DNA from: Eledone cirrhosa
Lineage: Eukaryota
Length of the DNA: 64,000 nt
Assembly: GCA_964016885.1 (NCBI GenBank)
Contig: OZ024742.1
Coordinates: forward strand, 302,250,001 to 302,314,000
Direction of reading: 5' to 3'
A model generated the notes under the pieces. The model was not told the DNA's origin and ran no database searches. It saw nothing but the letters and a program-made list of their open reading frames with translations. A program made the translations under genes and the position numbers. Within the stretch, counting starts at the first letter, position 1. The number at the start of each line of letters is the position of its first letter. This document shows positions 2,052 through 8,222 of this stretch, in pieces.

Positions 2052-2540
<489 letters not shown>

Positions 2541-2620: not shown

Positions 2621-2622
<2 letters not shown>

Positions 2623-2800
2623 CGAGGGAGGTGTGGTAAGGAACCAAATGGACCATAACGCACCAGAGTACTCAATACTTAGGGTAATAGGAAAATGTTT
2701 AACCCCGACGGCAGAGCTAAAGCCGTTTCGACGGCTATTTTTGGAGTCCAGAAATAGCCGCCGAAACGGCTTGAGCTCTGCTGTCGGGGTTAAACATTTT

Positions 2801-2805
<5 letters not shown>
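2621..2805 (-). mobile_element. Short fold-back element, family A copy 1, inserted in (TA)n
   Basis: Hairpin 2687-2805 centred on CGGCTATTTTTGGAGTCCAGAAATAGCCG; tail TATTGAGTAC on minus strand; homologous to 6770-6968. Confidence 0.75.
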
Positions 2806-2858
<53 letters not shown>

Positions 2859-2905
2859 AAGGAAAAGCGAAGTAGTTTCAGATGTTCAAGTCCTTTAATA
2901 ATAAT

Positions 2906-2979
2906 GCTGTGATATATATTTCAATGACGACACTGGCCACACTGTTCTGTGTGCGAGTGTCGTGTCATCATCAGACAGC
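2906..2979 (-). ncRNA. Type I hammerhead ribozyme (inverted copy)
   Basis: Reverse complement of the motif at 3861-3934. Confidence 0.8.
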
Positions 2980-3860
2980 TTGCTACATAACAAGGTTGTT
3001 TCCGAGGCAATCCAAATTGAATCGACATGGGAACGGATGAAGTTCGTGCTTTTGGGTTTTTCATCCGTTCCCTTGTGAGTACCAATTCACCCCCACCGGT
3101 CTGCGCAAGCGCATGTCCGAAGGAAGTTGACCATTAGTCACCGCAGATTTCAACGAAATTCGCTATCAGTTCACCCTCTCAGCCAAAACAATGGCCCACC
3201 TATGCCCTACCAAAGTCTACTGCTACCCATCACTACTGTGGCAGTCAGCCGAAAGCCAGAGGAGATGGGAGGGTGTTAGTTTTTATAGGTCATAATACTA
3301 CCTTTCACTAAGCGTTGACAATAAGACTGACCATCAACTCATAAGGGAAAATAAACTTAATTCTAGGTACTATGGTTTTACATTGTAAGTTAAGAGTGAG
3401 AGTTGGAAATAAAAATTAAAAATTAAAATCCTAAATCAAATATCAGAGATTATAAATTAAACAATTAAAAATTAAAAAATTCTAAATTCAAAAATGTTTC
3501 AAGTGATAATTCGGATTGAGTAAAAATATAGATTGAAGTGAGTAAATAATATGGAGGGAGATGTTTAAGTAATAAGTTCTGAGAGGGATTCTAGTGTCAC
3601 AGTTACTCTATCCACATATTGAACGACAGTGCCGTACATTATAACGGAGGGCAAACTACATGGTTCAAGGCATTAGTCAATCTGTTACACGGTCATAATT
3701 TCTATCATATGGAACAAAATCAAAGAAAAACAGTACACAAAAGAAAAGAAAAGAACAGAACCAATTAGGGAACGGATGAAAAACCCCAAAACACGAACTT
3801 CATCCGTTCTCATGTCGATTCAATTTGGATTGCCTCGGAAACAACCTTATTATGCAGCAA

Positions 3861-3934
3861 GCTGTCTGATGATGACACGACACTCGCACACAGAACAGTG
3901 TGGCCAGTGTCGTCATTGAAATATATATCACAGC
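3861..3934 (+). ncRNA. Type I hammerhead ribozyme
   Basis: GCTGT-CTGATGA-[TGAC(AC)GACACT..AGTGTCGTCA stem II]-GAAA-TATATA-TC-ACAGC; stem I GCTGT/ACAGC, palindromic stem III, AUC cleavage triplet. Confidence 0.85.
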
Positions 3935-5162
3935 ATTATTATTAAAGGACTTGAACATCTGAAACTACTTCGCTTTTCCTTATTCGATATTTACTCCGTC
4001 ACTCCTATGTGGAAAAAGTACGCTGAGTGCTTGAATTGAATTGCATCAATATTTACCCTAACAATTTAGCTCCGATTAGTTGAGCGTTCTATGATGTAAC
4101 CGATATGGTGGAGAAGAGAGGAACCAACCAAGAGCTACCCCGGAAATTCCCTCTACCATGGGGATGAAAACCCCTGACACTGGACGGGCGTAATAGTAAC
4201 TTTCGGCAGGATAAATACGCGGAAACAAAAAATAAGATAAATCCCTATTTTCCTGCACCAAATCGCATTTGAACGGAAGCCCCCTCAATTCAATCTATAC
4301 ATGGACAGATGGACAATCATATGGATCATTTTGCATATATGTACTCTGTGTTTTTGCATTTATTCACTATTGGTTCTGTTCTTTTCTTTTCTTTTGTGTA
4401 CTTTATGTCTGTTTTTCTTTGATTTTGTTCCATGTGATGGAAATTATGACAGTGTAACAGATTGACTAATGCCTTGAACCATGTAGTTTGCCCTCCGTTA
4501 TAATGTACGGCACTGTTGTTCAATATGTGGATAGAGTAACTGTGACACTAGAATCCCTCTCAGAACTTATTACTTAAACATCTCTCTCCATATTATTTAC
4601 TCACTTCAATCTATATTTTTACTCAATCCGAATTATCACTTGAAAAATTTTTGAATTTAGAATTTTTTAATTTTTAATTGTTTAATTTATAATCTCTGAT
4701 ATTTGATTTAGGATTTTAATTTTTAATTTTTATTTCCAACTCTCACTCTTAACTTACAATGTAAAACCATAGTACCTAGAATTAAGTTTATTTTCCCTTA
4801 TGAGTTGATGGTCAGTCTTACTGTCAACGCTTAGTGAAAGGTAGTATTATGACCTATAAAAACTAACACCCTCCCATCCCCTCTGGCTTTCGGCTGACTG
4901 CCACAGTAGTGATGGGTAGCAGTAGACTTTGGTAGGGCATAGGTGGGACATTGTTTTGGCTGAGAGGGTGAACTGACTGCGAATTTCGTTGAAATCTGCG
5001 GTGACTAATGGTCAACTTCCTTCGGACATGCGCTTGCGCAGACCGGTGGGGGTGAATTGGTACTCACAAGGGAACGGATGAAAAACCCAAAAGCACGAAC
5101 TTCATCCGTTCCCATGTCGATTCAATTTGGATTGCCTCGGAAACAACCTTATTATGTAGCAA

Positions 5163-5236
5163 GCTGTCTGATGATGACACGACACTCGCACACAGAACAG
5201 TGTGGCCAGTGTCGTCATTGAAATATATATCACAGC
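5163..5236 (+). ncRNA. Type I hammerhead ribozyme (tandem copy)
   Basis: Same sequence as 3861-3934, about 1302 bp downstream. Confidence 0.85.
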
Positions 5237-5364
5237 ATTATTATTAAAGGACTTGAACATCTGAAACTACTTCGCTTTTCCTTATTCGATATTTACTCCG
5301 TCACTCTATGTGGAAAAAGTACGTTGAGTGCTTGAATTGAATTGCATCAATGTTTACCCTAATA

Positions 5365-5447
<83 letters not shown>

Positions 5448-5473: not shown

Positions 5474-5660
5474 AATTGTTTCTACGTTTGGCACAAGGCC
5501 AGCAAATACTCAGTGCATTACTGGTACTTTATTTTATCGACCCCGTAAGGATGAAAGGCAAAGTTAACCTCGGCGGGATTTGAACTCAGAACGTAAAGGG
5601 CCGTAACTCTATGCTGTAAAGCATGTTGTCTGACGCTCTACCGATACTAACAATTCACCA
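5474..5660 (-). mobile_element. tRNA-derived SINE (abundant family; further copies ~14095-14280+, 17940-18075-, 19110-19257-, 21628-21818-, 22875-22985-, 27195-27640+, 28520-28822+, 31035-31170-, 39251-39436-, 39816-40004+, 52085-52710+, 60700-61115-)
   Basis: A-box-like TGGCAGTATCGG, B box GAGTTCAAATCC, conserved core GCCTTTCATCCTTACGGGGTCGATAAAATAAAGTACCAG, tail GGCCTTGTGCCAAAAGTAGAAACAATT. Confidence 0.9.
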
Positions 5661-5774: not shown

Positions 5775-5819
5775 CTGGTGACATTAATGTTGCTGGGTGA
5801 TTACCCTTCATCAGTACAG
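5775..5819 (-). ncRNA. Degenerate minimal hammerhead
   Basis: CTGATGA-AGGGTAATCACCCA-GCAA(GAAA mutated)-CATTAATG-TC-ACCAG on minus strand. Confidence 0.55.
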
Positions 5820-5969
5820 TATACTGCTTACCTGACAATTGTTAGAGCTAGTGAAAATATATGATATTTTCTAAAATTTACAGTGACTGATCGGCCTGAT
5901 TTGCATATTAGCAGACTGCCTGATCAGTCAGATCTGCATATTAGCAGACCCATATATATATATATATAT

Positions 5970-6224: not shown

Positions 6225-6640
6225 TGTACGTATGGGTTTTATCGAACATTAATAATAATATTTGATTCGTTTGTAAAGTTGTGCCGTGCCGATGACAAAT
6301 ATTCATCCGTTTGTTCAACACTGGCATTGAGGAACAATCAACATGTTTCTGGGTCATTATCCTTCATCAGGACTGTATACCTCTGCCAGTCTGTTGAACG
6401 GTCAGCCGTAACTCGCTCGGTATGCAAATGAGGCTTCTCAGCAGATGTGTACATAAGAAAATACTATATATTTTCTATAGTTCAACAGATTGGCAGAGGT
6501 ATAGAATCCTGATGAAGGGTAATGACCCAGAAACATGTTGATTGTTCATCAATGCCAGTGTTAAAGAAACAGATGACATTTTATCATCGGCACGGCGTCG
6601 AATATTATTTTTAATGTTCAATAATAACTTATACGTACAT
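6225..6640. mobile_element. Older inverted-pair element with two hammerheads (6336-6374 minus, 6505-6543 plus)
   Basis: Arms ~6225-6399 and ~6480-6640 are diverged reverse complements; each carries CTGATGA-AGGRTAATGACCCA-GAAA-CATG-TT-GATT. Confidence 0.75.
6505..6543 (+). ncRNA. Minimal type I hammerhead ribozyme
   Basis: AATC-CTGATGA-A-GGGT-AATG-ACCC-A-GAAA-CATG-TT-GATT; stems I and II pair, palindromic stem III. Confidence 0.8.
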
Positions 6641-6769: not shown

Positions 6770-6773
<4 letters not shown>

Positions 6774-6965
6774 GGAACGAGTAGGACCCCGACGGCTGAG
6801 CTCAAGCCGTTTCGACGGCTAATTCTGGCGTCCAGAATTAGCCGTCGAAACGGCTTGAGCTCAGCCGTCGGAGTCCTACTCGTTCCTATTACCCACTCTA
6901 CTACCCTAAGTATTGAGTACTTTGGTGCGTTATGGTCCACCTGGTTTCTTACCACATTTCCTTCG

Positions 6966-6968
<3 letters not shown>
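6770..6968 (+). mobile_element. Short fold-back element, family A copy 2, inserted in (TA)n
   Basis: Hairpin 6771-6888 centred on CGGCTAATTCTGGCGTCCAGAATTAGCCG followed by GAAAC; tail ACTC..TATTGAGTAC. Confidence 0.75.
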
Positions 6969-7030
<62 letters not shown>

Positions 7031-7159
7031 AATGAAAATGTTATACACGTAACTCATATGCGCGACCATAGGTGTCGGGGTAGGTCCAGGTATGGAAAAT
7101 TTTGTCGAAGCTCCCGATGGGAGGTCAGTATTAGAACGGCTCCTCCGTTACACAGTGAT

Positions 7160-8222
7160 TAACTGGCTGGGTGGTTCGGTTGCTGGCTGGTTGGCTGGTT
7201 GGCTGGTTGGCTGATCAGTTGCTGGTTGGCTGGTTGGCGGGCTGATCAGTTGGCTGTTTGGCTGGTTGGCGGGCTGATCAGCTAGTTAGCTGGCTGGTTG
7301 GCTGTTTGGTTGGCTGGCTGGCTGAATGGTTGTCTGGTTGGCTGGCTGGGTTGGATGGTTGGCTGGCTGGGGTTGGCTGGTTGGCTGTCAGGCTGGCTGA
7401 TTGGATGGCTGGATGGTTGGCTGTTTGACTAGCTGGTTGGCTGGCTGGCTGGCTGTTTCGTTGGCTGTTTGGCTGGCTGGTTGGCTGGTTGGTTGGCTGG
7501 TTAGTTGGCTGTTGGGCTGGCTGGTTGGCTGGCTGGTGGGCTGGTTGGTTGGCTGGCTGGTTGGCTGGTTGGTTAGCTGTTTCGTTGGCTGTTTGGCTGG
7601 CTGGTTGGCTGGTTGGTTGGCTGGTTGGTTGGCTGTTTCGTTGGCTGTTTGGCTGGCTGGTTGGCTGGTTGGTTGGTTGGCTGGTTGGCTGGTTGGTTGG
7701 ATGTTTCGTTGGCTGTTTGGCTGGCTGGCTGGCTGGTTGGTTGGCTGTTTCGTTGGCTGTTTGACTAGCTGGTTGGCTAGCTGGTTGGCTGGCGGGTTGG
7801 CTTGTTGGTTGGCTCTTTCGTTGGCTGTTTGGCTGGCTGGTTGACTGGTTGGTTGGCTGTTTGGTGGCTGGTTGGCTGGCCAGTTGGCTGGTTGGTTGGC
7901 TGTTTCGTTGGCTGTTTGGCTGGCTGGTTGGCTGGCTGGTTGGATGTTTCGTTGGCTGTTTGGCTGGCTGGCTGGCTGGCTGGTTGGTTGGCTGTTTCGT
8001 TGGCTGTTGGGCTGGCTGGCTGATTGGCTGGTTGGTTGGCTGTTTGACTAGCTGGTTGGCTAGCTGGTTGGCTGGCGGGTTGGCTTGTTGGTTGGCTCTT
8101 TCGTTGGCTGTTTGGCTGGCTGGTTGGTTGGCTGGCTGGTTGGTTGGCTGGCTGAATGACTGGCTGGCTGGTTGGTTGGCTGGTCGGCTGGTTGGTTGGC
8201 TGGTTGGCTGGCTGTTTGACTG
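7160..8222. repeat. (TGGC/TGGT)n tetranucleotide-derived satellite
   Basis: Directly visible; gives spurious W/L/A/G ORFs. Confidence 0.9.

What the first reader, a model, noticed from the sequence alone, without database searches (positions are those of the whole stretch)
2856..5362. Young 1.3-kb ORF-less unit bounded by two identical hammerheads, plus an inverted 5' copy
Predicted cleavage sites at 3929 and 5231 would release a ~1302-nt monomer with no coding capacity. The architecture (tandem terminal repeats plus inverted 5' segment) mirrors PLE insertions. The palindromic TATATA stem III suggests dimeric cleavage between tandem copies. Arms differ by only scattered substitutions, so the insertion is recent. 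This is the best single candidate here for a complete non-autonomous element.
Basis: partly seen in the sequence, partly recalled or inferred. Interest (0 to 1): 0.72.

Follow-up and report, generated by a model that had tools for sequence, protein, structure and literature searches.

The report
Large ribozyme element riding Hydra retrotransposons
This is one of hundreds of copies of a 1.3-kb non-coding jumping element that carries a predicted self-cutting RNA motif and the same two fixed ends and twin hairpin motifs as this animal's Hydra-type Penelope retrotransposons, whose enzyme likely copies its RNA, probably as a circle, into both sides of a cut TA repeat.

Summary
Three identical 74-nt hammerhead motifs are present (two direct, cut sites 1302 nt apart; one inverted), there is no ORF, and both ends lie in (TA)n. 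The unit is a dispersed family: 600 exact hits to a 21-nt ribozyme word, unit length 1.22-1.32 kb. An older sister lineage (72-77% identical) is equally long and ORF-less, so this is a long-lived non-autonomous element, not a decayed ORF. Copies end at +56 or +132 after the cut; 62 of 65 classifiable two-armed insertions have one of each (64 after re-inspection), and both arms are closest kin. Each end lies about 7 nt before one of two matching hairpin motifs that an intact 894-aa Hydra-clade Penelope-like element in this genome also carries, making Hydra enzymes the likely mobiliser. Caveats: the ribozyme lacks the G10.1-C11.1 pair and is predicted to misfold; cleavage, circles and expression are untested; this copy is mid-aged (about 2% between arms). 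The scan reported the same two-armed footprint and twin hairpins earlier on other families of this genome; this family was not among them. New variant of a known kind; interest 0.52.

The parts
2803..2854 (.). Left (TA)n target microsatellite
   Evidence: sequence
2855..3765 (-). Inverted, 5'-truncated arm ending outward at the short end (+56 after the cut); reverse complement of 4369-5287
2906..2979 (-). Third hammerhead motif, identical to the other two; predicted cut after 2911
3767..4061 (+). 5' direct repeat (pseudo-LTR-like partial tandem copy)
3861..3934 (+). Hammerhead motif 1, type I, palindromic stem III, U.U at 10.1-11.1; predicted cut after 3929
3930..5231 (+). One complete 1302-nt ORF-less unit, cut site to cut site
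3993..4028 (+). Hairpin motif 1 (ACTC ... 2-nt bulge ... GAGT), +64 to +99, 7 nt past the short end
   Evidence: structure predicted, an alternative local hairpin folds as well
4068..4086 (+). Hairpin motif 2 (GCTC ... GAGC), from +140, 7 nt past the long end; present only in internal copies
4090..5068 (+). Non-coding interior, pyrimidine-rich in the middle, poorly conserved between lineages; no homology to PLE ORFs
5070..5113 (+). Strong predicted hairpin upstream of the ribozyme, kept with base changes in the old lineage; the inversion junction of this copy falls at its start
5163..5236 (+). Hammerhead motif 2; predicted cut after 5231
5288..5362 (+). 75-nt 'tail' between short end (+56) and long end (+132), with hairpin motif 1 at 5295-5329; the right arm ends at the long end
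5363..5444 (.). Right (TA)n target microsatellite
   Evidence: sequence

Best explanation
The locus is one insertion of a dispersed, ORF-less 1.3-kb element family whose copies end at two fixed points beside twin hairpin motifs shared with Hydra-clade Penelope-like retrotransposons, and it is likely mobilised in trans by a Hydra-type reverse transcriptase-endonuclease. Shown: family, constant length, (TA)n targeting, two fixed 3' ends, one of each per two-armed insertion, close kinship of the two arms, shared motifs with an intact Hydra element. Inferred: the enzyme (likely a dimer) cuts (TA)n, docks on hairpin 1 and hairpin 2 of one RNA, primes cDNA from each DNA end about 7 nt upstream of each hairpin, reads through the ribozyme site, and the two variably truncated cDNAs are joined head to head by short overlaps. 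Further inferred, with less certainty (about 0.5): the template is the hammerhead-cut, re-ligated 1.3-kb circle, because hairpin 2 is never copied into a terminal arm, so purely linear copying would lose most of a unit at each long-end start, yet the lineage has kept tandem full units over more than 20% divergence.
For: Family: 19 of 133 matches cover at least 1276 of 1302 nt at 94-100% (40 of 2359 candidates scored); 600 and 163 pattern hits, controls 0. Length: 29 of 30 distinct SINE-free young cut-to-cut units are 1219-1315 nt; two old ones 1326 and 1389. Ends: of 119 loci, 65 two-armed with both ends classed: 62 long+short, 2 long+long (both long+short on re-inspection), 1 short+short; P=1e-15 under independent choice; 29 of 30 in the set picked only by the ribozyme word. 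One template: 31 loci, arm-to-arm 2.0% against 5.0% median to other loci; 52 private alleles shared in 16,433 nt against 5 in 216,556 nt of random pairs; tandem units 19 in 12,198 nt. No pile-up of 5' ends at the cut site (6 of 174 in the first 12 nt, none at +1), 60 of 87 junctions overlap. Partner clade: intact 894- and 893-aa ORFs, 98.8% identical, with RWK, DKT, CxCx5C, CxxC, CxH and no CCHH as Craig 2021 defines Hydra; ends +54 and +148-153, hairpins at +61 and +160, ATG at +208; ribozyme-plus-short-tail alignment score 42 against 21.7+-3.5, 0 of 500 shuffles. Termini 69-91% conserved between lineages, interior down to 9-38% in places.
Against: No RNA-level evidence. The ribozyme core is non-canonical and predicted to misfold; in the one PLE reconstituted in vitro, ribozyme cleavage was not needed and uncut RNA was the main template (PMC11167929). 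The Hydra family found shares only short motifs with the unit (no blastn hit of note) and its long end is +150, not +132, so it may not be the actual partner. At this locus the arms share no private allele, and 3 of the 6 differences between the direct repeats fall on sites polymorphic in the family, which fits two templates or mutable sites. Hairpin 1 has a competing local fold, and its descriptor test is modest (8 clusters against 7, 6, 5 for microsatellite-like runners-up). 20 two-armed loci had one end that could not be classed.
Confidence: 0.72

Rival explanations
1. Same Hydra-driven two-armed insertion, but the template is an uncut linear multimer read through from tandem source loci (or monomers joined by template jumps); the ribozyme is weak or vestigial and no circle exists.
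For: Non-canonical, predicted misfolded ribozyme; PAc in vitro data (PMC11167929); a read-through template explains the absence of 5' ends at +1 equally well; a few tandem differences recur at polymorphic sites.
Against: Linear copying shortens the array each round; the longest arm seen has three ribozymes (L022) and would need a still longer source, not seen among 119 loci; catalytic positions and the self-complementary stem III are kept across lineages; tandem units share private alleles.
Confidence: 0.35
2. The unit is the non-coding remainder (leader plus long 3' UTR) of a Hydra element that lost its ORF; an autonomous parent with nearly the same ends exists or existed. This concerns origin and is compatible with the best explanation.
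For: Hydra leader plus 3' UTR totals about 1,450 nt, close to 1,302; same order of ribozyme, hairpin 1, hairpin 2; similar pyrimidine-rich middle.
Against: The interior's match to the Hydra UTR is compositional: score 59 against 57 for the reversed UTR. No ORF-bearing copy of this family was seen upstream of the ribozyme in 119 young and 30 old loci.
Confidence: 0.45
3. The copies are passive debris: truncated pieces of autonomous PLEs or a DNA fold-back element (MITE) with terminal inverted repeats.
For: Inverted arms look like long terminal inverted repeats; most copies are 5'-truncated.
Against: Arm lengths vary from tens of nt to more than a unit, the outer ends are unequal, tandem junctions are precise, and the ORF-less unit itself has subfamilies from 98% to 72% identity at constant length.
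Confidence: 0.04

Closest known systems
Metazoan non-LTR retrozymes (Cervera and de la Pena 2020, PMC7229834, passages and Discussion read; Li, Clavereau and Pollet 2026, bioRxiv 10.64898/2026.07.22.740005, parts 1-3 of 5 read)
   Same: Non-coding, tandem-capable unit with a type I hammerhead per unit, low GC, proposed PLE mobilisation; Li et al. tie them to PLE pseudo-LTRs.
   Different: Unit 1.3 kb against about 220-400 nt in the tested coral, mussel and axolotl cases and 51-972 bp in Li et al. (whose repeat finder was capped at 1000); mostly dispersed partial tandems with inverted arms, at most three ribozymes in a row here; minimal, non-canonical ribozyme; circles not shown.
Hydra clade of C-terminal EN+ Penelope-like elements (Craig et al. 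2021, PMC8557442, passages and section 11 read)
   Same: (TA)n targeting, hammerhead in the terminal repeat, partial tandem plus inverted 5'-truncated copy, tail on one end only; ribozyme layout and twin hairpin motifs match the local Hydra family.
   Different: No ORF; tail 75 nt rather than 30-40 nt; only short motifs alignable to the Hydra family found.
Poseidon PAc of Anolis (Frangieh et al. 2024, PMC11167929, main text read)
   Same: Two internal reverse-transcription start sites downstream of the hammerhead define the tail; both DNA strands cut and extended; predicted dimer.
   Different: Autonomous; the paper saw no strand difference in start site and names one AC-rich stem-loop, whereas here each insertion uses one site per side and each site has its own hairpin motif.
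Non-autonomous Chlamys elements such as MRC1 (Craig et al. 2021, passage read) and pLTR-flanked captured sequences in Adineta (PMC3846280, passages read)
   Same: Non-coding or foreign sequence mobilised in trans through PLE terminal sequences.
   Different: Other clades; most Chlamys lack hammerheads; Adineta cases are single events, not a long-lived family.

Membership tests
Non-autonomous Penelope-like element | No RT/GIY-YIG coding capacity | tested here: met
   longest frame 74 aa, within shuffled range; no tblastn match to 72, 16 and 12 local retroelement frames
Non-autonomous Penelope-like element | Partial tandem forming pseudo-LTRs, inverted 5'-truncated copy, one-sided tail | tested here: met
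Non-autonomous Penelope-like element | Dispersed copies with fixed 3' ends and variable 5' truncation | tested here: met
Non-autonomous Penelope-like element | Terminal sequence shared with an autonomous partner | tested here: inconclusive
   motif-level match to a Hydra family; no partner with near-identical ends found
Non-autonomous Penelope-like element | Mobilisation in trans by a PLE protein | not testable with these tools
   needs an in vitro or cell assay
Non-LTR retrozyme | At least two tandem units each with a type I hammerhead | tested here: met
   two direct motifs here; up to three in L022
Non-LTR retrozyme | Canonical core including G10.1-C11.1 | tested here: not met
   U.U at this position in young and old lineages; the local Hydra ribozyme has G-C or G.U there; no Rfam hit
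Non-LTR retrozyme | Short monomer (hundreds of nt) | tested here: not met
   1.22-1.39 kb; Cervera 2020 mentions lengths to over 1000 nt only in its Discussion
Non-LTR retrozyme | Self-cleavage and circular RNA in vivo | not testable with these tools
   no wet assay; no RNA run available
Hydra clade (for the candidate partner L346/L347) | RWK, DKT, CxCx5C linker, CxxC and CxH, no CCHH, C-terminal EN, hammerhead, (TA)n target | tested here: met
   motifs read in the 894-aa frame against Craig 2021 section 11; weak BLASTP to a Neptune-like RT, E=8e-5; no Pfam hit; no tree built
MITE / DNA fold-back element | Equal terminal inverted repeats and fixed length | tested here: not met
   unequal ends and freely varying arm lengths

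The most novel reading that the evidence does not exclude
A 1.3-kb, protein-free circular RNA replicon, the largest animal retrozyme-like unit in the papers read here, has parasitised Hydra-clade retrotransposons for a long time; a dimeric Hydra enzyme grips two hairpins on one circle and copies it into both ends of a cut TA repeat, which explains the one-sided tail, the inverted arm and the regeneration of tandems in Penelope-like elements.
Probability: 0.35. Interest if true: 0.78.

Novelty: new variant of a known kind. Interest (0 to 1): 0.52.

Why it matters
How Penelope-like elements make their tandem and inverted insertions with a tail on one side is called an open problem by Craig et al. 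2021, and PLE mobilisation of retrozymes has been proposed but not shown. This family gives a countable rule (one short and one long end per insertion, both arms from one template), candidate cis-signals (twin hairpin motifs) and a candidate intact enzyme in the same genome, so the model can be tested in vitro. It also extends animal ribozyme parasites beyond the 1-kb cap of existing searches. If confirmed, two short hairpins plus a ribozyme would be enough to have about 1 kb of arbitrary RNA written into TA repeats.

Tried and rejected
Pfam PF26215 is not in the library; PF01541 was used instead and returned mostly Neptune-like and Poseidon-like elements whose tails do not match (50 loci). 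A 2.9-kb gap inside an old unit on C7 was not the missing ORF but a nested unrelated two-armed PLE. A family sharing stems I and III (L223, L228, L234; 25 loci) showed no linked ORF. Similarity of the interior to the Hydra 3' UTR was rejected as compositional. A tRNA-derived SINE sits at +6 after the cut in 34 of 207 junctions with differing 5' joints; I considered template switching at a cleaved RNA end but rejected it, since 14 of 115 ATTATTATT clusters in flanking DNA are filled likewise. A-to-I editing at +122 as a source of differences between tandem copies: no enrichment of G at terminal ends (57 of 88 against 36 of 49 internal). A short reading frame after hairpin 2 is not kept in frame between lineages (sequences). 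No RNA holder listed; three contig sets of unknown type from one study were laid and add nothing on expression. Lunse et al. 2017 is not held and is known here only through a review passage (PMC6765202). bioRxiv supplements of Li et al. were not seen and could list long families. No paper describing twin hairpins or a strict short-plus-long rule turned up; subscription journals are largely not covered. The organism was not determined; earlier AI notes call it octopus-like.

Full report
Observation. The window is AT-rich animal DNA from a 3.0-Gb assembly (G000, C3). Between two (TA)n tracts lies a 2.5-kb element: an inverted arm (2855-3765, reverse complement of 4369-5287), then a forward part (3767-5362) made of a 295-nt repeat, an interior and a second copy of the repeat 1302 nt further on. 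Each repeat and the inverted arm hold the same 74-nt type I hammerhead motif, with predicted cuts after 3929, 5231 and, on the minus strand, 2911. The longest frame is 74 aa, within the shuffled range; 14 of 56 frames scanned against Pfam gave nothing over a cut-off, and Rfam gave nothing.

Family. A search with the unit scored 40 of 2359 candidates and gave 133 matches, 19 of them nearly full length at 94-100%. A 21-nt word of the ribozyme occurs 600 times exactly and a 22-nt word near the 5' end 163 times with at most one mismatch; reversed controls gave 0. I examined 119 loci: 39 best hits, 20 chosen by the 5' word, and 60 of the 69 not yet fetched C1 loci from the first 100 listed ribozyme hits. 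Of 37 cut-to-cut intervals, three held a SINE, one was a 26-nt duplication and one was a duplicate locus; of the 30 young ones left, 29 are 1219-1315 nt and one, in a complex locus, 1408; two old-lineage units are 1326 and 1389. The best-hit set is biased towards full length, but the distance from the 5' word to the cut is also tight (57 rows, 1007-1105). An older sister lineage, 72-77% identical to the window unit and 78-91% among its own copies, is equally long and without a long frame. Identity between lineages is 83-91% in the first 200 nt, 69-86% in the last 250 nt and falls to 9-38% in parts of the middle. The non-coding unit has therefore been propagating as such, with selection on its ends.

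Not a decayed ORF. tblastn of 72 frames from 50 GIY-YIG loci gave only scattered short hits (best E 0.006 on a 1.5-kb target, 24% identity); 16 and 12 frames from Hydra loci gave none at E 0.05 and 0.1. No PLE ORF was seen joined upstream of the ribozyme in the loci examined (part of the output was cut).

Insertion footprint. 3' ends cluster at about +56 and +132 after the cut, nearly always against (TA)n or (TC)n. Of 119 loci, 34 are one-armed, 20 two-armed with one end outside both classes, and 65 two-armed with both ends classed: 62 have one short and one long end, 2 scored long-long and proved long-short on inspection (a neighbouring relic in L043, an interrupted arm in L117), and 1 is short-short with one end not at a TA tract. 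Independent choice would give this with P about 1e-15; in the set chosen only by the ribozyme word it is 29 of 30. A tail on one end only is a known PLE trait (PMC8557442, PMC3846280), and in the anole element PAc the tail lies between two reverse-transcription start sites (PMC11167929). Here the tail is 75 nt and the pairing is nearly strict. In 31 loci with at least 200 nt of overlap the two arms differ by 2.0% on average against 5.0% to other loci and share 52 private alleles in 16,433 nt (5 in 216,556 nt for 290 random pairs); tandem units in 25 loci share 19 in 12,198 nt. Both arms thus come from one RNA or one source locus; these data cannot separate the two, and later gene conversion could add to the signal. 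The window copy is a weak example: no private shared allele, and 3 of 6 differences between its direct repeats are at polymorphic sites. Its 2.0% arm divergence equals the family mean; the youngest loci are at 0.3-0.9%. Inner junctions mostly overlap by a few bases (60 of 87), and 5' ends do not pile up at the cut (none at +1; 6 of 174 within 12 nt), so the template was continuous across the ribozyme site.

Cis-signals and partner. Earlier AI notes suggested looking for a shared hairpin and for Hydra-type elements. Comparing three unrelated families in the first 7 kb of the window showed a common motif, ACTC, a variable inner helix, a 2-nt bulge, GAGT. Among 96 four-mers, ACTC ranked first for this descriptor near TA ends (8 sequence clusters, mean 1.6, runners-up 7, 6, 5), a modest margin. 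One family carrying it proved to be an ORF-bearing element with a young subfamily holding intact 894- and 893-aa frames that are 98.8% identical. It has the motifs that define the Hydra clade. Its ends are at +54 and +148-153, and all five two-armed loci among the eight fetched by protein match have one of each. It carries the first motif at +61 and a second, GCTC ... GAGC, at +160, then ATG at +208. The unit has the same pair at +64 and +140, each 7 nt past an end, and the second motif is kept in 54 young and 9 old copies. The ribozyme and short tail align to the Hydra ones better than 500 of 500 shuffles. Beyond this nothing aligns, and the resemblance of the interior to the Hydra UTR is compositional, so a Hydra-clade partner is likely but this family need not be it.

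Ribozyme. Base changes within and between lineages favour a symmetric stem II register homologous to the Hydra ribozyme, which puts U.U at 10.1-11.1, where PLE ribozymes usually have G-C (PMC4209133). The free motif folds best with its core sequestered (-25.3 kcal/mol); the active fold is -15.3 with stem III as a hairpin and -18.7 without it, and the stem III palindrome adds -3.2 as an intermolecular duplex, -2.2 in the old lineage. Catalytic positions are nearly invariant in about 200 copies (part of this stretch was selected for). A weak, dimer- or protein-assisted ribozyme is the expected state, as reported for PLE ribozymes; activity is untested.

Mechanism. Shown: the footprint, the motifs and their positions. 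Inferred: a Hydra-type protein cuts (TA)n, binds the two hairpin motifs and primes one cDNA from each DNA end, at +56 and +132; both run through the ribozyme, stop at variable points and are joined head to head. A logical point favours a circle: hairpin 2 lies beyond the long end and is never copied into a terminal arm, so in this locus it exists only after the first ribozyme. An uncut transcript could start a long arm only there and would copy 295 nt of unit sequence; a full-length long arm needs either a longer tandem source or the cut and re-ligated monomer. Since the lineage has kept tandem units over more than 20% divergence, something regenerates them; a circle is the simplest, jumps between cut monomers or unseen long sources are the rivals. 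I put Hydra-type mobilisation at about 0.72 and the circle at about one half of that.

Relation to what is known. It works like a non-LTR retrozyme and files as a non-autonomous PLE; it fails two usual retrozyme traits (short monomer, canonical core) and the circle is untested. I found no paper on twin hairpins or the strict end pairing. The scan's own notes report both on other families of this genome; a look-up by this sequence and by place found nothing. Verdict: real, a new long variant of a known kind, valuable mainly as a test system; interest 0.52.

Noticed in passing
window 2168-2540: Two-armed mini-element of another family (138-nt arms) with a short end much like this unit's and hairpin motif 1 at about 2470-2500.
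   Followed up: partly
window 2622-2803 and 6771-6968: Two copies of a very abundant two-armed mini-element family with hairpin motif 1 and unequal ends in (TA)n; seen in many fetched loci.
   Followed up: partly
window 5477-5659 (- strand): Copy of a 184-nt tRNA-derived SINE (ARAGORN at relaxed setting calls tRNA-Trp) that targets ATTATT sites; the same SINE sits at +6 of this element in 34 of 207 junctions, three in tandem in L147.
   Followed up: yes
window 5787-5824 and 6283-6596: Further hammerhead-like motifs in a two-armed element (117-nt arms) and an older relative.
   Followed up: no
window 26826 and 38950: Two more hammerhead motifs of other families; both families also carry hairpin motif 1 in other loci (L086, L043).
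   Followed up: partly
window 7150-8000 and beyond: Long GGTT/GGCT-rich minisatellite.
   Followed up: no
L346:1413-5490, L347:1990-6060: Young Hydra-clade PLE family with intact 894/893-aa frames, a long low-complexity insert between RT and EN, and a 1.24-kb 3' UTR; many copies give identical search scores.
   Followed up: partly
L082:4809-7622 and L083, L086, L089, L090, L092: Young Neptune-like PLE family with long open frames, a 3' UTR over 1 kb and two ends, without the ACTC hairpin motif and with an atypical ribozyme core.
   Followed up: partly
L268:2100 to L265:1500 (C7): A 2.9-kb two-armed PLE of another family nested in the internal TA tract of an old unit.
   Followed up: partly
L223, L228, L234, L301-L325: Old decayed family sharing stems I and III with this ribozyme; no linked ORF in 25 loci.
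   Followed up: partly
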